DNA of 64,000 bases from sequence record OZ035795.1; one strand, 5' to 3'. A program made the translations under genes and the position numbers. Shown here in pieces: positions 34,345-39,078 of this stretch. Below the pieces are notes generated by a model that was not told the origin of the DNA, ran no database searches, and saw nothing but the letters and a program-made list of their open reading frames with translations. How positions within the stretch are numbered: position 1 is the stretch's first letter; every line of letters starts with the position of its first letter. Origin of the DNA: Krischvirus LF73P4.

Positions 34345-34926
34345 ATGATTCAATGTGTATTTGCGATTGGTGACACTAAAATGTCGGATGAAAATTGGGC
34401 TTTTGGTTTTAAAGGCGGTTTACCGTGGGGTCGTCCAATCAAAAAGGACATGGAAAACTTTAAAATGCGCACTATGGGAGATGTTGATCTTGCGGCGGTT
34501 GTAATGGGACGCAATACCTTTGAAAGTCTTCCTAAAGCACTGGAAGGTCGTGTGAATGTGGTTGTTAGTACCGATACCAGTAAGCCAGCACCGAAAGCAA
34601 AAAACGGCGAACAACCTGATGTGTATACCGCGATTACTAATGATGGTGGATTGAAGGAATTATTAGAAGTCATAGAGAAATTGCAAGGTTTGGTAAGCGT
34701 TATCGGCGGACCTTCCCTGATTGAAAAAGCGGTTGACTTTGCGGACCGTATTGTGTTAACGTATGTTCAACGTTCAGGGGTCAACGATCCATTTGAATAT
34801 GATGTTGGTATCTCTAAGGAAATGATTCAGGAATTATATTTTGATTTTGCAACAAAAGAAGAACATAATTACTTCCTTGATGATTACCTGATCAGCGAAC
34901 AAATTTTAGAACGTAAGAAGGCGTAA
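34345..34926 (+). CDS. frd: dihydrofolate reductase
   Basis: GLPWGRP and VIGGPSL DHFR motifs; position next to td as in T4. Confidence 0.8.
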   Translation: MIQCVFAIGDTKMSDENWAFGFKGGLPWGRPIKKDMENFKMRTMGDVDLAAVVMGRNTFESLPKALEGRVNVVVSTDTSKPAPKAKNGEQPDVYTAITNDGGLKELLEVIEKLQGLVSVIGGPSLIEKAVDFADRIVLTYVQRSGVNDPFEYDVGISKEMIQELYFDFATKEEHNYFLDDYLISEQILERKKA

Positions 34927-34927
34927 C

Positions 34928-35020
34928 ATGAAAATTCTGACAGATTATGAGTGCAAACATTGTGGTGAATCTTTGATGTTTGCTGGTAGTCGGTGTTTAC
35001 ATTGTGGACGGGAACAATAA
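34928..35020 (+). CDS. zinc-ribbon mini-protein (30 aa, CxxC...CxxC); not in ORF track
   Basis: MKILTDYECKHCGESLMFAGSRCLHCGREQ; stop overlaps next ATG (TAATG). Confidence 0.4.
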   Translation: MKILTDYECKHCGESLMFAGSRCLHCGREQ

Positions 35021-35289
35021 TGAAAATAACCATTATTCAATTATGGTCAGCTACCAGTGAAAACTACGCAGTAGCCGTAGATTATTACGGGTTACAATAT
35101 CTCTATGATGAAGCTAAAGCGTCATGGCTTCCAGTACAGGAAAATAGCGACATTTCAAGACCTGTTACTGTATTCGATCCGGGCGTTGTCTTTATCGATA
35201 TTGACGAGACAGTAGCAAAACTGCGTAAGAAAGCAATCAATAAGAAAAAGGTGAAGTGGGATGAAAGAATATTTGAAACTGTTGCGTGA
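35020..35289 (+). CDS. hypothetical protein (89 aa; start adjusted to ATG 35020)
   Basis: translationally coupled to upstream mini-ORF; ORF track 34993..35289. Confidence 0.5.
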   Translation: MKITIIQLWSATSENYAVAVDYYGLQYLYDEAKASWLPVQENSDISRPVTVFDPGVVFIDIDETVAKLRKKAINKKKVKWDERIFETVA

Positions 35290-36484
35290 TGTTCTTGATA
35301 ATGGTTGGCCTCGTGAAGACCGCACGGGGGTAGGTACGCTCTCTAAATTCGGCGCAGAGATGCGAATTGATTTAAGCAAGGGTTTCCCCTTACTGACCAC
35401 TAAAAAGATGGCTACAGCCTCTGTAATTGGCGAATTGCTATGGTTTATGGAGGGATCACTTGACCGCCGTCGTTTACAGGAAATTACACGCGGTAAGTTT
35501 GACGAAGAAGCCTTCGACATTTGGCGCGGTAACTGTCTTGATATGAAAGAAAAGAATCCTTTGCGATTCAATGGTTATAATGTCGGTAATATGTATGGTA
35601 TGGCATGGCGACGCAAACCGATTCATCCACACGGTGAAATCAAAATTAAGCGCGTTAAGAGCAAATATACACATACATTTAAGCACCCGTGGGTAGAAGA
35701 CTTTACGCCAACTAACGACACAGAAGACCGTTTATGTGCTATCTGGCGTGGTATGCGTTATGAAGAGTTTGATTATATTCTGGTAGCAGACCACTGGAAG
35801 ACTCAATCTAATTTTGTTAATGATGCATATTGCTTGTGGGGATTCCAGGAATGGGTAGATGATGGTTATTTCGGTTATCTGCTTGATAATGAATATCTGG
35901 GCGGTGACATTTTAGCACCGGATACCACGATCTTTGTTAGTATGGACGTAGACACATCAAGCCCTAAAGACGATGAAGAATATGTCTATCGCCAGAAGAT
36001 CTGGGAAGACCAGTTACAAAAAGTTATTGACATGATCAAGAATGATCCATATAGTCGTCGTATTATCATTGATTCATGGAACGTACAGGAAACGCATAAT
36101 GCTGTGTTAGGTGTATGTCATCCGATGGTACAGTTTTATGTTTCCAACGACAACAAATTGAGTTGTTTATTTTTCATGCGTTCGAATGATCTCTTTTTAG
36201 GGAATCCGTTCAACGTAGCGAGCTATGCACTGTTAACGCATATCATCGCGAAGATTTGCGGGTTAGAAGTTGGCGAACTGGTTTATCAGTGTGGGGATTG
36301 CCACATTTACAAAAACCATTTTGATCAAGTTATGGAACAGTTAAGCCGTGTTCCGTTTGATAAACCAACAATTGAGTTGCCGGAATTTAAATCTTTAGAT
36401 GAGGTATTGACAAAGACTCCGAAAGACTTTAAAATTCACAACTATCAAAGCCATCCAGCAATCACCGCTCAAATGGCAGTATAA
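35261..36484 (+). CDS. td: thymidylate synthase (ThyA-type) with a large internal insertion
   Basis: N-terminal DRTGVGTLS, FPLLTTKK; C-terminal DPYSRRIIIDSWNV, CHPMVQFYV, LGNPFNVASYALLTHIIA match ThyA; 407 aa versus about 265-290 typical. Confidence 0.85.
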   Translation: MKEYLKLLRDVLDNGWPREDRTGVGTLSKFGAEMRIDLSKGFPLLTTKKMATASVIGELLWFMEGSLDRRRLQEITRGKFDEEAFDIWRGNCLDMKEKNPLRFNGYNVGNMYGMAWRRKPIHPHGEIKIKRVKSKYTHTFKHPWVEDFTPTNDTEDRLCAIWRGMRYEEFDYILVADHWKTQSNFVNDAYCLWGFQEWVDDGYFGYLLDNEYLGGDILAPDTTIFVSMDVDTSSPKDDEEYVYRQKIWEDQLQKVIDMIKNDPYSRRIIIDSWNVQETHNAVLGVCHPMVQFYVSNDNKLSCLFFMRSNDLFLGNPFNVASYALLTHIIAKICGLEVGELVYQCGDCHIYKNHFDQVMEQLSRVPFDKPTIELPEFKSLDEVLTKTPKDFKIHNYQSHPAITAQMAV

Positions 36485-36490
36485 ACAAAT

Positions 36491-36508
36491 GCGGGGAGAA
36501 ATCCCCGC
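36491..36508 (+). promoter_or_regulatory. conserved GCGGGG-AGAAAT-CCCCGC hairpin element
   Basis: perfect 6-bp stem hairpin between td stop and next SD; same element recurs in promoter spacers and after other genes. Confidence 0.5.
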
Positions 36509-36520
36509 TAGGAGTATCAA

Positions 36521-36838
36521 ATGAAAATATGCCGCGTTGTAAACAAGTACAATAGCGATTTTGATGTTAACATTCAGCGTGGTACTATGTGGGGAAATCC
36601 ATACACCGCCAAAGAATACGGACGCGAGAAAGCTATTGCATTATACAAAGAGTGGTTGTATAATAAGATTCGAAATGGTGAGATAACACGAGCGCATTTA
36701 GAAGTATTAAGACATATGCGCTTAGGTTGTACTTGTTACCCTAAGAAATGCCACGGTGAAGTATTGGCGGATCTCGTTAATAGAGTTTTCGGCGATACTC
36801 CAGAAAATACGCTTGATATATTAAGTGAGGTAATATGA
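36521..36838 (+). CDS. hypothetical protein, DUF4326-like (recalled family, unverified)
   Basis: GNPY ... CTCYPKKCHG pattern; directly upstream of nrdA with ATGA overlap. Confidence 0.5.
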   Translation: MKICRVVNKYNSDFDVNIQRGTMWGNPYTAKEYGREKAIALYKEWLYNKIRNGEITRAHLEVLRHMRLGCTCYPKKCHGEVLADLVNRVFGDTPENTLDILSEVI

Positions 36839-39078
36839 TTAAAAATGTTGTTAAGTCTTCCGGTCTGACTGTTCCGTTTGAAAAAGAAAAAGTAATGAAA
36901 ATTCTGGAAGCGGCAGCCGAAGGTCATAACGTTGATCCATATGAATTGTTTGATATGGTTGAACCACTTCTGACAGAAGGTATGTCTACCAATGATATCC
37001 AGAAAGTATTGATTAAGGTCGCCGCAGATAACATCACGGTAGAAACTCCTGATTATCAATATGTAGCAAGTAACCTTGCAATGTTCGCGCTTCGCAAATC
37101 AGTATACGGTCAATTCCAACCGATTGATTTTTACAGCCATATTGAGCGTAATATTGCAACCGGAAAATATGATCGCGAAATTCTGCAAAAATATTCCCGT
37201 GAAGAAGTGGAATATCTGGAGAAATTCATCGACCATAAACTTGATTTTAAAATGACCTATGCTGGTGCGATGCAGTTAAAAGAGAAATATCTTGTTCAAG
37301 ATCGCAGCACCAAGAAAATCATCGAAACACCGCAATTTGCGTATATGCTGATCGGTATGTGCTTGCATCAAGAAGAGACAGAAAATCGACTTGAACATGT
37401 GATTGATTTTTATAATGCGGTTGCGAATAAGCAAATCTCTCTGCCTACTCCGATTATGGCAGGTGTGCGTACCCCAACACGCCAATTTAGTTCGTGTGTG
37501 GTGATTGAAAGTGATGACTCATTGCAGGGTATTAATGAAACCGCAAATGCAATCATCAAGTATATTAGCAAGCGTGCTGGTATCGGTATCAACGCTGGCA
37601 TGATTCGCGCGGAAGGATCTAAGATCGGGCATGGTGAAGTTCGTCATACTGGAGTTATCCCATTCTGGAAACATTTTCAGACTGCCGTTAAGTCATGCTC
37701 ACAAGGCGGTATTCGTGGCGGGGCAGCGACACTCTATTACCCAATGTGGCATTTAGAGTTTGAAAGTCTGATTGTGTTAAAGAACAATAAGGGCGTGGAA
37801 GATAACCGCATTCGTCATCTTGATTACGGCGTACAGATTAATAACCTGATGGTAGAGCGATTCCTTAAACGGGATTACATTACTCTGTTTAGTCCAGATG
37901 TTGCGGGTGGCTTGTTGTGGGATCTGTACTTCCGAGACGAGGAAGGTTTCCGCCAACTTTACGAAAAACTGGAAAAAGATCCGAGTGTTCGTAAAACTCG
38001 TGTTAAAGCCGAAGACCTGTTTTTAGCGGTGGCAATTGAACGTTTTAACACTGGTCGAATCTACCCAACGTTCACAGACAACATGAACAATCACGGGGCG
38101 TTTATTCGTAATGTAGCACCGATTAAACAATCTAACCTGTGTTGTGAAATTGCACTGCCTACTAAACCGATGGGTCGTGATGATTCAGAGATCAGCCTAT
38201 GCACTTTGGCAGCATATGTTTTAGGTAATTTCGATATCGAAAACATGGAAGAAGTAGAACGCATTGCTATGGTTATGGTGCGTGCACTTGACAACCTGTT
38301 AGATTATCAGGATTATCCTGTAGAACAAGCTCTGACAGCAAAAAAACGTCGCTCTCTGGGCGTTGGTGTTACTAACTTTGCATCATATCTCGCGGATAAT
38401 TTCTTCACATATGAAGACGCTAACGAGTTTACGCATAAAACGTTTGAACGCTTGCAATATGCTCTGATTAAGGCTAGTGTGCAACTCGCAAAAGAGAAGG
38501 GTGCTTGCGAACTGATGCACGAAACACGCTACGGTCGCGGTGAACTTCCTATCGACTGGTACAAAAAGACAGTAGATGAACTGGTTGATCCGGTGTATGA
38601 GATGGATTGGGAAGAACTGCGCGAAGACCTGAAAAAATATGGCATTCGTAACAGTACGCTTTCGGCTCTGATGCCTTGTGAGTCGTCTTCTCAGGTATCT
38701 AACAGCACAAACGGTATTGAACCGCCTCGCGGGATTGTATCGGTTAAAGGATCGAAAGAAGGGCAATTTAATCAGGTTATTCCGAACGTAGAGAATAATG
38801 CTGATGTTATTGACCTGCTTTGGACACTGATCAAGAAAGGTAACAAGCCTTATCTGACACTTGCAGCGATCATGCAGAAGTTTGTAGACCAGGCGATTAG
38901 TTCCAACACATCCTACGATCCAAGCACTTATAAGACTGGTAAAGTCGATATTGCTGATGTGTTAGATGATATGTTGTTCGCTCAACATTACGGTCTGAAA
39001 ACCCTGTATTATGCGAACGTTCGCGACGGTGCAGATGGTACGGAAGACGCTAGCGAGTGTTCATCCTGTAAGCTGTAA
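36835..39078 (+). CDS. nrdA: ribonucleotide reductase class Ia, large subunit
   Basis: N-terminal ATP-cone, active-site region NLCCEIALP, C-terminal Cys pair; 747 aa. Confidence 0.95.
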   Translation: MIKNVVKSSGLTVPFEKEKVMKILEAAAEGHNVDPYELFDMVEPLLTEGMSTNDIQKVLIKVAADNITVETPDYQYVASNLAMFALRKSVYGQFQPIDFYSHIERNIATGKYDREILQKYSREEVEYLEKFIDHKLDFKMTYAGAMQLKEKYLVQDRSTKKIIETPQFAYMLIGMCLHQEETENRLEHVIDFYNAVANKQISLPTPIMAGVRTPTRQFSSCVVIESDDSLQGINETANAIIKYISKRAGIGINAGMIRAEGSKIGHGEVRHTGVIPFWKHFQTAVKSCSQGGIRGGAATLYYPMWHLEFESLIVLKNNKGVEDNRIRHLDYGVQINNLMVERFLKRDYITLFSPDVAGGLLWDLYFRDEEGFRQLYEKLEKDPSVRKTRVKAEDLFLAVAIERFNTGRIYPTFTDNMNNHGAFIRNVAPIKQSNLCCEIALPTKPMGRDDSEISLCTLAAYVLGNFDIENMEEVERIAMVMVRALDNLLDYQDYPVEQALTAKKRRSLGVGVTNFASYLADNFFTYEDANEFTHKTFERLQYALIKASVQLAKEKGACELMHETRYGRGELPIDWYKKTVDELVDPVYEMDWEELREDLKKYGIRNSTLSALMPCESSSQVSNSTNGIEPPRGIVSVKGSKEGQFNQVIPNVENNADVIDLLWTLIKKGNKPYLTLAAIMQKFVDQAISSNTSYDPSTYKTGKVDIADVLDDMLFAQHYGLKTLYYANVRDGADGTEDASECSSCKL

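What the first reader, a model, noticed from the sequence alone, without database searches (positions are those of the whole stretch)
35615..35995. About 125-aa in-frame insertion within thymidylate synthase
The td product is 407 aa. Both flanks align to ThyA (N-terminal dUMP-binding region; C-terminal DPYSRRIIIDSWNV, catalytic CH, LGNPFNVASYALL), but roughly residues 119-245 have no ThyA counterpart. The reading frame is continuous, so this is not an intron. The segment contains no obvious intein termini and may be a novel accessory domain.
Basis: seen in the sequence. Interest (0 to 1): 0.6.

Follow-up and report, generated by a model that had tools for sequence, protein, structure and literature searches.

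The report
Endonuclease-derived domain nested in thymidylate synthase
This RB49-like coliphage makes a thymidylate synthase with a well-folded ~127-residue extra domain in one surface hairpin, and that domain is a stripped-down, non-splicing relic of a homing-endonuclease-like phage protein that sits full-length at the same spot in the thymidylate synthases of many other phages.

Summary
The td ORF (35261-36484, 407 aa) is an intact ThyA with about 127 extra residues (121-247; nt 35621-36001). They replace the 5-residue hairpin turn T103-R107 of E. coli ThyA, between the conserved WR and DQ motifs. This is the loop that carries the 8-residue eukaryotic insert, not the L. casei insert site.

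It is not an intron: Rfam finds nothing and the codons are under purifying selection. It is not an intein: there is no Hint domain and no junction nucleophiles. There is no hidden out-of-frame gene. AlphaFold2 models it as confidently as the enzyme core, as a small alpha/beta domain on a long two-stranded beta ribbon.

The domain has an identifiable origin. At least 100 thymidylate synthase clusters carry inserts of 127-365 aa at this same site. The large inserts match free-standing phage proteins annotated 'HNH/homing endonuclease' (PHROG 2081/953/374), some with an I-HmuI-type C-terminal HTH.

The window's version keeps only the central module's hydrophobic core. It has lost the N-terminal beta domain, the HTH and the near-invariant polar residues (R-C-Y, D-K-D, Y, C, N), and it is acidic (pI 4.7, against about 9 for the relatives). 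It is fixed in all 58 Krischvirus records found and constrained (dN/dS about 0.25).

Verdict: a degenerate or domesticated in-frame endonuclease-like insertion. Its present role is unknown.

The parts
35261..36484 (+). td (thyA-type thymidylate synthase), 407 aa, host gene of the insertion
   Evidence: ORF. PF00303 7.5e-84. TIGR03284 277 bits against a cut-off of 108. All catalytic and substrate-binding residues fall in invariant alignment columns: R21, E58, W88, Y112, R266/R267, C286, H287, R307, S308, D310, N318, H348, Y350. frd-td-nrdA synteny.
35261..35620 (+). TS N-terminal core, residues 1-120, ending in the conserved GNMYG..WRRKP motif (= E. coli Y94..W98-R99..P102)
   Evidence: Alignments A1/A4; PDB phmmer alignment; motif coordinates.
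35621..36001 (+). Nested insertion, residues 121-247 (~127 aa), acidic (net charge -11, pI 4.7)
   Evidence: Alignments; charge; AF2 pLDDT 92-98 across these blocks.
35615..35650 (+). Ascending strand of the beta-ribbon stalk (residues 119-130, KPIHPHGEIKIK), basic
   Evidence: DSSP on the AF2 models: E119-130, E2-14 in the insert-only model. Conserved 'RKPI.P.G.I.IKR' in all insert-bearing TS.
35732..35953 (+). Remnant of the central endonuclease-family module (residues 158-231). It keeps the family's hydrophobic core (W162, W179, F185, L208, T224, F227). The family's polar near-invariant residues are replaced: R-C-Y -> E-E-F, D-K-D -> D-N-E, Y -> L, C -> T, N -> D
   Evidence: Column conservation in 9 small inserts, 76 large inserts and 42 free-standing proteins. 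An HMM built from free-standing proteins alone hits this stretch at E 2.2e-7. hhalign E 3.6e-5. Foldseek hit to the free-standing KIL3b protein, E 1.4e-4, probability 1.0.
35981..36007 (+). Descending strand of the beta-ribbon stalk (residues 241-249, YVYRQKIWE), leading into the conserved DQL of TS
   Evidence: DSSP E241-249. 'YV.RPKI..DQ' is conserved in insert-bearing TS.
36002..36481 (+). TS C-terminal core, residues 248-407 (DPYSRR, catalytic C286, RS.D, C-terminal MAV)
   Evidence: PDB alignment of query 250-407 to E. coli 110-264; invariant columns.

Best explanation
The segment is a nested protein domain that is translated and stays in the mature enzyme. It is inserted at the tip of the surface beta-hairpin that follows the WR motif of ThyA. 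The two hairpin strands are extended into a long two-stranded ribbon (119-130 and 241-249). The ribbon carries a small alpha/beta domain, so I infer that the TS fold and active site can form without any splicing.

By descent, the domain is the central module of a widespread family of phage proteins that resemble homing endonucleases. Their full architecture is an N-terminal beta domain, a central W..M..RCY / W..F.NF..D / LDKD..Y..TC.F...N module, and a C-terminal I-HmuI-type NUMOD-like HTH. In many other phages the complete protein sits in frame at exactly this TS site with its conserved polar residues intact. I infer that those are, or recently were, mobile elements that colonise td without an intron or an intein.

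In the Krischvirus lineage the element is fixed and reduced. The flanking DNA-binding modules are deleted, the conserved polar residues are replaced and the charge has flipped to acidic. Neither DNA binding nor cleavage is expected. It persists under purifying selection. I infer three possible reasons: a misfolding insert would damage TS, no precise deletion is available, and an occupied site is immune to related endonucleases.

Shown here: the position, the continuity of the frame, the confident fold prediction, the homology, the loss of motifs and charge, and the sequence constraint. Inferred: the direction of evolution (reduction), the nuclease or homing activity of the full-length relatives, and the reason for retention.
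For: Position and integrity of TS.

Not RNA-spliced: no Rfam match in 34900-36900 at E<=10 other than noise. dN/dS in the insert is 0.23-0.26, with p=2e-5 for fewer nonsynonymous changes than neutral.

Not an intein: no Hint or intein Pfam hit. The junction residues are P120/I121 and W248-E249/D250.

Fold: full-length AF2 model pLDDT 95.7, pTM 0.93, with the insert blocks at 92-98. Insert-only model pLDDT 93.9.

Same site in many TS: 100 of 193 full-length TS analysed carry more than 60 extra residues between E. coli positions 99 and 110.

Homology of the large inserts to free-standing genes: tblastn finds 1,346 phage records, many annotated HNH or homing endonuclease. PHROG 2081/953/374/3377 match at 1e-17 to 1e-66. 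PF22083, the I-HmuI NUMOD-like domain, is found in P0045 and in Sophrita gp146. hhalign to I-HmuI residues 112-171 gives 94.8%.

Homology of the window's small insert to that family: nested alignment, hhalign E 3.6e-5, free-standing-only HMM E 2.2e-7, Foldseek against BFVD E 1.4e-4 to a 178-aa free-standing protein.

Degeneration: motif loss and acidic charge against basic relatives.

Fixation: 58 Krischvirus-type records, all full length. The same reduced form occurs in a 169-kb metagenomic T4-like contig with frd-td-nrdA synteny.
Against: Nuclease activity of the family is only an annotation. No Pfam nuclease domain was found in the inserts, in 3 free-standing phage proteins, or in 20 further hits.

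The window's insert alone matches no PHROG or Pfam model.

The direction of change (reduction rather than growth) is inferred from the distribution of the family. The NJ tree of TS cores leaves the deep nodes unresolved, with 10 inferred gains or losses.

dN/dS of about 0.25 and near-identical protein sequence across the genus are also what an exapted, functional domain would show.

Confidence: 0.7

Rival explanations
1. Exapted accessory domain. The reduced acidic domain now does something useful for the phage, and that function, not mere tolerance, explains its conservation. Examples would be docking Td to partners of the T4-type dNTP-synthesising or replication machinery, acting as a DNA-mimicking decoy, or modulating TS activity.
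For: The insert is under purifying selection (dN/dS 0.23-0.26, p=2e-5). It is retained in all 58 Krischvirus-type records and in relatives whose TS core differs at 31-38% of positions. The fold prediction is very confident. The shift to an acidic surface is consistent across all 9 small-insert representatives, which looks directional rather than like decay.
Against: No partner, motif or activity is identified. The insert evolves about 1.6 times faster than the core in this lineage, and its dN/dS is about twice that of the core. Folding constraint on a nested domain inside a useful enzyme would by itself give dN/dS well below 1.
Confidence: 0.22
2. The domain is an ancestral, TS-specific accessory domain. 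The free-standing 'endonuclease' genes would then be derived from it, rather than the other way round.
For: Insert presence is strongly clustered on the TS core tree (10 changes against 64.7 expected at random). Core and insert distances are positively correlated (Mantel 0/500). Both fit long vertical co-descent.
Against: The family is vastly larger outside TS: 33,419 representatives, with most of the best non-TS hits being 175-300 aa stand-alone proteins, and 1,346 phage records. The free-standing proteins sit at typical homing-endonuclease positions between nucleotide-metabolism genes. E. coli ThyA, the eukaryotic TS and the 93 short (260-310 aa) TS analysed here all have a short loop at this site (PMC5929524).
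Confidence: 0.05
3. An intein, possibly a degenerate mini-intein, that is removed by protein splicing.
For: It is an in-frame insertion in a conserved region of a nucleotide-metabolism enzyme, which is a typical intein habitat. Inteins are reported in actinophage ThyX-type thymidylate synthase (bioRxiv 10.1101/2025.01.02.630785).
Confidence: 0.01
4. A group I intron, another RNA-level recoding element with an open frame, or a ShiLan-type insertion carrying a hidden out-of-frame endonuclease.
For: T4 td famously carries a group I intron. The ShiLan element shows that in-frame read-through insertions with an out-of-frame HNH gene exist (PMC11855218).
Against: No Rfam family matches. The segment shows amino-acid-level conservation and dN/dS of about 0.25 in the td frame. 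No alternative-frame open stretch longer than 59 codons lies within the insert, and none of the alternative-frame stretches matches Pfam. GC content is indistinguishable from the flanks.
Confidence: 0.01

Closest known systems
ShiLan domain of mycobacteriophage DNA methylases (Arsenault, Gosselin & Gogarten 2025, PMC11855218)
   Same: It is an insertion in a phage enzyme gene that reads through in frame. It has no intron or intein features and is predicted to stay in the host protein as a hairpin-like protrusion held away from the catalytic body. It is associated with an HNH-type homing endonuclease.
   Different: In ShiLan the endonuclease is encoded out of frame, and the in-frame product is not the nuclease. 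Here the endonuclease-like protein is itself in the host frame (in the large-insert TS), and the window's copy has no alternative-frame ORF. ShiLan is sporadic and apparently still homing. The Krischvirus insert is fixed and degenerate. The host enzyme and the endonuclease family both differ.
Inteins with nested homing endonucleases, and their degenerate mini-intein stage
   Same: It is an in-frame selfish insertion at a conserved site of a nucleotide-metabolism enzyme. There is a size series from full-length inserts to reduced remnants, consistent with the invasion, fixation and degeneration cycle.
   Different: There is no splicing domain and there are no splice-junction residues. The insert has to be tolerated structurally in the mature enzyme.
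Free-standing phage 'HNH endonuclease' proteins of PHROG 2081/953/374 (for example Pseudomonas phage KIL1 gp50, Bacillus phage Sophrita gp146, Bacillus phage DIGNKC gp67)
   Same: They share the same central module: W..M..R.., W..F.NF..D, L.G...W, LD.., T..F. The homology rests on an HMM match at E 2.2e-7, hhalign at E 3.6e-5 and Foldseek at E 1.4e-4.
   Different: The window's copy lacks the N-terminal beta domain and the C-terminal NUMOD-like HTH. It has lost R-C-Y, D-K-D, Y, C and N, and it is acidic (pI 4.7 against 8.8-9.4). It is embedded in TS rather than free-standing.
I-HmuI (PDB 1U3E), HNH homing endonuclease of Bacillus phage SPO1
   Same: The C-terminal NUMOD-like HTH of the full-length relatives is homologous to I-HmuI residues 112-171 (PF22083; hhalign 94.8%). 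The overall order of beta domain, central module and HTH is similar. By eye, the family's D-K-D...N has the same 22-residue D-to-N spacing as I-HmuI D74...N96.
   Different: The central module does not match the I-HmuI HNH region by profile comparison. A Lys stands where the HNH general-base His would be. None of this part survives in the window's insert.
Known length variation in ThyA: the L. casei/S. aureus 50-residue small-domain insert and the two eukaryotic inserts (12 aa at hTS 117, 8 aa at hTS 146; PMC5929524)
   Same: The site used here, between WR and DQ, is the loop that holds the 8-residue eukaryotic insert. It is therefore a naturally indel-tolerant surface position.
   Different: The insert here is 127 aa (up to 365 aa in relatives) and is an autonomous folded domain of foreign origin. 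The L. casei insert is at a different site, upstream of LG.VYG (alignments).
Homing-endonuclease insertions that split phage genes (for example mobE splitting nrdA in Aeromonas phage Aeh1; my own recollection of Friedrich et al. 2007)
   Same: An endonuclease gene invades a nucleotide-metabolism gene of a T4-like phage, and the host enzyme stays functional.
   Different: There the host gene is broken into two polypeptides. Here the reading frame is continuous and the product is a single chain.

Membership tests
ThyA-type thymidylate synthase (PF00303 / TIGR03284) | Profile match above the curated cut-off over the whole fold | tested here: met
   PF00303 281 bits against a cut-off of 24.3, covering profile positions 1-266. 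TIGR03284 277 bits against 108.
ThyA-type thymidylate synthase (PF00303 / TIGR03284) | Catalytic Cys and the dUMP/folate-binding residues (E. coli R21, E58, W80, Y94, R126/R127, C146, R166, S167, D169, N177, H207, Y209) | tested here: met
   All correspond to invariant columns: R21, E58, W88, Y112, R266/R267, C286, R307, S308, D310, N318, H348, Y350.
ThyA-type thymidylate synthase (PF00303 / TIGR03284) | dTMP synthesis activity | not testable with these tools
   This needs an enzyme assay or complementation of a thyA mutant.
Intein | Hint (splicing) domain detectable by profile or fold | tested here: not met
Intein | N-terminal Cys/Ser (or Ala) and C-terminal His-Asn followed by Cys/Ser/Thr at +1 | tested here: not met
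   The junctions are ...WRRKP|IHPHG... and ...RQKIWE|DQL..., and the +1 residue is the conserved Asp of TS.
Group I intron | Match to an intron covariance model; no coding constraint in the host frame | tested here: not met
   Rfam E-value search of 34900-36900 gives only two chance hits outside the insert. dN/dS is 0.23-0.26 in the td frame.
ShiLan-type insertion with a hidden out-of-frame endonuclease | A long alternative-frame ORF inside the insertion that encodes an HNH enzyme | tested here: not met
   The longest alternative-frame open stretch inside the insert is 59 codons. None of six such stretches matches a Pfam family above noise.
PHROG 2081/953/374 homing-endonuclease-like family (free-standing or TS-embedded) | Sequence or structure homology of the central module | tested here: met
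   An HMM of 42 free-standing proteins hits window Td at E 2.2e-7, the only hit among 628 ORFs. hhalign E 3.6e-5. Foldseek E 1.4e-4, probability 1.0, to the KIL3b 178-aa protein. However, hmmscan of the insert alone against PHROGs finds nothing.
PHROG 2081/953/374 homing-endonuclease-like family (free-standing or TS-embedded) | Near-invariant polar residues R-C-Y, D-K-D, Y, C, N (each 84-100% in the 76 large inserts and the 42 free-standing proteins) | tested here: not met
   The window has E-E-F, D-N-E, L, T and D at these columns. The other small inserts also lack them.
PHROG 2081/953/374 homing-endonuclease-like family (free-standing or TS-embedded) | N-terminal beta domain and C-terminal NUMOD-like HTH (PF22083) | tested here: not met
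   Both are absent from the window's insert in alignment A5. They are present in P0045, Sophrita gp146 and DIGNKC gp67.
HNH (beta-beta-alpha-metal) nuclease superfamily | HNH profile match, or the catalytic His / Asn / metal-ligand motif | tested here: not met
   No HNH Pfam hit in the window's Td, in the large inserts or in the free-standing members. hhalign against I-HmuI aligns only the HTH. The family has Lys where the general-base His would be, and the window has Asn.
HNH (beta-beta-alpha-metal) nuclease superfamily | Fold similarity to a solved HNH enzyme | tested here: inconclusive
Active homing endonuclease (mobile element) | Site-specific cleavage of the empty allele, and sporadic presence/absence among close relatives | tested here: not met
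   In Krischvirus the insert is fixed: 58 records, none with an empty site. For the large-insert forms, related ~350-kb jumbo phages differ in presence or absence, but at only 64% core identity. Cleavage cannot be tested here.

The most novel reading that the evidence does not exclude
ThyA of phages may host a previously unrecognised class of selfish element. This would be a complete homing-endonuclease-like protein that invades the WR/DQ surface hairpin in frame. It would be expressed as part of the enzyme and need neither intron nor intein, because the host fold tolerates a domain on a beta-ribbon stalk. The data set would then show the whole life cycle: full-length, motif-intact, basic inserts in at least 76 TS clusters; intermediate forms that have lost one flanking module; and the fixed, acidic, motif-less Krischvirus domain. 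That last form would have been exapted, for instance as a permanent block of the homing site or as a protein- or DNA-mimic surface.
Probability: 0.3. Interest if true: 0.8.

Novelty: new variant of a known kind. Interest (0 to 1): 0.6.

Why it matters
Homing endonucleases are thought to survive inside essential genes only by hiding in self-splicing introns or inteins, or else by sitting between genes. Here a family of endonuclease-like proteins sits in frame and unspliced inside a conserved enzyme, at one precise structural site, in at least 100 thymidylate synthase sequence clusters (50% identity). A graded series runs from complete inserts to stripped-down ones. If the complete forms are active, this would be a further persistence strategy, structural tolerance instead of splicing. 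Only one loosely similar case, ShiLan, turned up in the literature I could search.

The finding also has practical uses. It marks a permissive domain-insertion site in ThyA. It explains why some phage td genes are annotated as 'HNH endonuclease'. It offers the Krischvirus Td as a natural test of what happens to such an element after fixation. And the central module belongs to a very large family (33,419 cluster representatives) that has no Pfam model and no solved structure.

Tried and rejected
- Pfam, PHROG and PDB sequence searches with the window's insert alone found nothing.
- A word-indexed homologue search with the insert alone found no candidates. The same search with the insert profile returned only 14 proteins.
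- A profile search of PDB with the insert alignment returned nothing.
- Foldseek against PDB returned nothing. The afdb50 library was unavailable.
- I considered F-CphI and the Endo VII (DHHRN) family after a cyanophage 'HNH homing endonuclease' Foldseek hit. I rejected it because no Endonuclease_7 profile hit exists in any member and that family is defined by different residues (PMC6083498).
- I looked for nuclease domains fused to the module in 20 longer or shorter non-TS hits. None was found. Several appear to be tandem copies of the module.
- I looked for other host enzymes carrying the module. Among the top 150 representatives only TS was recognisable.
- I tried to decide between one and several acquisitions with an NJ tree of TS cores. 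Deep nodes had bootstrap support below 50, so this is unresolved.
- Core-versus-insert distance correlation is saturated at this sampling depth (Pearson 0.25, Spearman 0.08).
- Papers on RB49, T4-like genome diversity and T4 mobile elements do not mention the long td. The RB49 genome paper is not held.
Full report
**Context.** The window is a Krischvirus, an RB49/Phi1/JSE/GEC-3S-like T4-type coliphage. The td ORF matches 58 GenBank phage records over its full length at 80-98% nucleotide identity. Gene order is frd (34345-34926), a small ORF, td (35261-36484), a DUF4326/nrdA.1-like ORF (36521-36838) and nrdA (36835-39078).

**The observation.** td is one uninterrupted ORF of 407 codons. Pfam's thymidylate synthase model covers residues 2-407 (7.5e-84). 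phmmer against PDB splits the match into residues 3-88 and 250-407, with 250-407 aligned to E. coli ThyA 110-264.

In multiple alignments with insert-less TS and E. coli ThyA, GNMYGMAWRRKP aligns with GPVYGKQWRAWP (E. coli Y94...W98-R99...P102), and EDQL aligns with I109-D110-Q111-I. Residues 121-247 (nt 35621-36001) therefore replace the five-residue turn T103-R107.

This is not the site of the L. casei 50-residue insert, which lies upstream of LG.VYG (alignments). It is the loop that holds the 8-residue insertion of mammalian TS at position 146 (PMC5929524). All catalytic and substrate-binding residues of TS are in invariant columns, so the enzyme is very probably active.

**What it is not.**
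- Not an intron. An Rfam E-value scan of 34900-36900 finds no intron or other RNA family, and base composition matches the flanks.
- Translated in the td frame. Across 12 Krischvirus td genes, dN/dS in the insert is 0.23-0.24 pairwise and 0.26 column-wise. Nonsynonymous changes are significantly fewer than neutral (p = 2e-5).
- Not an intein. There is no Hint or intein profile. The junctions (P120|I121, E249|D250) carry none of the splicing nucleophiles.
- No hidden gene. No alternative-frame open stretch longer than 59 codons lies inside the insert, and none matches a protein family. This excludes the ShiLan arrangement.

**Structure.** AlphaFold2 was run on a 47-sequence alignment. It gives pLDDT 95.7 and pTM 0.93 for the whole protein, with the insert predicted as confidently as the core. 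Strands 119-130 and 241-249 form a long ribbon that extends the native hairpin. Between them lie helices 153-168, 177-189 and 195-200 and two short strands. The insert modelled alone gives the same fold (pLDDT 93.9). Model coordinates are not exposed, so I could not measure the distance to the active site or the dimer interface.

**Relatives inside other thymidylate synthases.** Searching with the full protein returned many TS of 400-553 aa. A profile of the inserts was searched against 1.84 billion cluster representatives. It returned 33,419 hits at E<=1e-3 and 224 at E<=1e-30. Of 193 full-length TS in hand, 100 carry more than 60 extra residues, always between E. coli positions about 100 and 109.

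The aligned inserts form a nested series. All share the two stalk strands (RKP..P.G.I.IKR and YV.RPKI..DQ) and a central module. Inserts of about 180-200 aa add either a C-terminal or an N-terminal extension. Inserts of about 245-280 aa add both:
- an N-terminal beta domain (G.I..S..G.Y.V.G......V.F..TG....I..G..KD...PSV.GVGY.G);
- a C-terminal segment that in P0045 and P0122 is recognised as the I-HmuI NUMOD-like HTH (PF22083).

**Relatives outside thymidylate synthase.** The large insert of P0108 finds 1,346 phage records by tblastn. Most are stand-alone genes annotated HNH endonuclease, homing endonuclease or DNA-binding protein. Three were examined:
- Pseudomonas phage KIL1 gp50, 178 aa;
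- Bacillus phage Sophrita gp146, 231 aa, between an RNR subunit gene and dUTPase;
- Bacillus phage DIGNKC gp67, 236 aa, between PRPP synthetase and NAMPT.

These have the same architecture as the large inserts. Large inserts and free-standing proteins both hit PHROG 2081, 953, 374 and 3377, all labelled 'HNH endonuclease', at 1e-17 to 1e-66. The C-terminal HTH is homologous to I-HmuI residues 112-171 (hhalign 94.8%). My recalled I-HmuI sequence was verified against 1U3E.

**Is the window's small insert really a member?** Four independent lines say yes:
- It aligns column by column with the large inserts at the same site of a homologous enzyme: LWGFQEWVDDGY...LLDNEYLGGDILAPDTTIF against LWGFQEFVDSGY...LDKDYYGSNIYSPDTCIF.
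- hhalign of seven small inserts against three free-standing proteins gives E 3.6e-5.
- An HMM built only from 42 free-standing proteins hits the window's Td at E 2.2e-7, and hits no other of the 628 ORFs in the window.
- Foldseek of the insert-only model against viral predicted structures returns TS-with-insert proteins. It also returns the free-standing 178-aa KIL3b protein (E 1.4e-4, probability 1.0), followed by proteins named homing endonuclease or I-HmuI-like.

**What has been lost.** Column statistics show that 76 large TS inserts and 42 free-standing proteins share near-invariant residues. These are W, M, R-C-Y, V, W, F, D, L, D-K-D, Y, T-C and N, each at 84-100% in both groups. The nine small inserts keep the hydrophobic ones (W162, W179, F185, L208, T224, F227 in the window). 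They have replaced the polar ones: R-C-Y becomes E-E-F, D-K-D becomes D-N-E, Y becomes L, C becomes T and N becomes D.

Charge has flipped as well. The window's insert has net charge -11 and pI 4.7, and its globular part is -18. The small inserts have a median pI of 4.75, against 8.89 for the large inserts and 8.8-9.4 for the free-standing proteins. The window's copy therefore preserves the fold but has lost everything expected of a DNA-binding or catalytic surface.

**Is the family a nuclease?** This is not established.
- No Pfam nuclease model hits any member examined.
- The central module has no sequence-detectable relative in PDB.
- By eye, the family's D-K-D...N has the same 22-residue D-to-N spacing as D74...N96 of I-HmuI, with Lys in place of the general-base His. 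Profile comparison does not support this alignment, so I treat it as a lead only.

**Evolutionary pattern.** Insert presence is strongly clustered on an NJ tree of TS cores (10 changes against 64.7 for shuffled labels), but the deep nodes are unsupported. Core and insert distances correlate weakly overall because of saturation. In the window's own lineage they rise together: core and insert p-distances are 0.09/0.06, 0.31/0.53, 0.38/0.61 and 0.43/0.68. This indicates vertical co-descent, with the insert evolving about 1.6 times faster than the core.

The reduced form is older than the genus. A 169-kb metagenomic contig with frd-td-DUF4326-nrdA-nrdB synteny has a td that is 51% identical and carries a 127-aa insert.

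Among ~350-kb jumbo phages of enterobacteria, KP13-7, UE-S1 and ph0011 carry insert-bearing TS. 121Q, SP27, Sharanji and Muenster carry ~309-aa TS with 64% core identity. That is a sporadic distribution, but it is not close enough to prove recent homing.

**Interpretation.** The simplest account has three steps.
- An endonuclease-like mobile gene was captured in frame at a conserved but structurally permissive hairpin of ThyA.
- It persisted in many phage lineages with its functional residues intact.
- In the Krischvirus lineage it became fixed and was trimmed to a fold-only, acidic domain.

This matches the invasion, fixation and degeneration cycle known for introns and inteins, except that nothing is spliced. 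Continued purifying selection has two possible readings. One is a folding constraint on a domain nested in a useful enzyme, plus immunity of an occupied site. The other is a new function. I favour the first (about 0.7 against 0.2) but cannot exclude the second.

**Prior description.** I found no description of this td insert in the searchable literature. The closest published analogue is the ShiLan insertion in mycobacteriophage methylases (PMC11855218).

Noticed in passing
window ~35990-36310 (td codons ~245-350): td is a sharp mosaic within Krischvirus. The window, ELT3, JSE and KFS-EC share one allele of the active-site half of TS. RB49, Phi1, G2248, PHB13, ECD7, Makalu_003 and SSG23 carry another allele that is 20-48% different at the nucleotide level (peak at codons 291-320). 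The flanks on both sides differ by only 0-3%. In most phages the 5' breakpoint coincides with the 3' edge of the insert; GoldenSnicker breaks at about codon 275. The window's patch resembles the P0003-P0005 type TS. This could be a gene-conversion tract or an exchange for endonuclease resistance, since from my own knowledge I-TevI and I-BmoI target this part of td.
   Followed up: partly
window ~35765-35775 (td residue ~170): There is a 4-codon indel polymorphism among Krischvirus td genes...EEFDY--ILV... against ...EEFDSEYNLFLV.... It lies exactly where the full-length relatives have the Y..YGGKG hairpin, so it looks like a residual trace of that element.
   Followed up: partly
metagenomic TS P0166, P0172, P0183, P0186, P0203, P0204, P0211, P0213, P0223, P0259: Besides the main insert, these TS have a second extra segment of about 20-50 aa near E. 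coli positions 152-159, just after the catalytic Cys region. P0205 (739 aa) and P0220 (676 aa) also have extra N-terminal or further internal length.
   Followed up: no
L004 2141-3574 (Vibrio phage D69, VPHD69_0093); also D181 and D148: A 477-aa CDS that contains a homologue of the window's insert, matching from the TS-conserved RKP stalk onwards, is annotated 'HNH endonuclease'. It is presumably a td with a large insert that was named after the insert. Klebsiella phage phiKp_21 td (517 aa) is annotated 'hypothetical protein'.
   Followed up: partly
L001 (Pseudomonas phage KIL1, 19968-23558): The free-standing homologue gp50 lies between two CDS that are each annotated as joined from two pieces, the large terminase subunit and a hypothetical protein. 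This suggests an intron- or split-gene-rich hotspot around it.
   Followed up: no
P0130, P0132, P0134, P0137, P0139, P0147, P0154, P0196, P0214, P0250: Proteins of 380-724 aa match the insert profile in 2-6 separate stretches. The seven scanned against Pfam (P0130, P0132, P0137, P0139, P0147, P0154, P0196) have no domain above the cut-off. They are apparently tandem arrays of the module. The family as a whole (33,419 representatives) lacks a Pfam model for its central module.
   Followed up: partly
~350-kb jumbo phages (KP13-7, UE-S1, ph0011 against 121Q, SP27, Sharanji, Muenster): Related jumbo phages differ in whether their thyA carries the ~245-aa insert. The insert-bearing and insert-less TS cores are only 64% identical and lie at different genome coordinates, which suggests replacement of the gene rather than simple gain or loss of the insert.
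   Followed up: no
window 35261-35289: The td start overlaps the end of the upstream 98-codon ORF (34993-35289) by 29 nt. The same overlap is annotated in ELT3, JSE, RB49 and other records.
   Followed up: no
P0261 (436 aa), P0156 (381 aa), P0219 (335 aa), P0175 (337 aa): Some representatives consist of the module plus only the C-terminal or only the N-terminal half of TS. They may be genes cut at contig ends, or td genes genuinely split at the insertion site.
   Followed up: no
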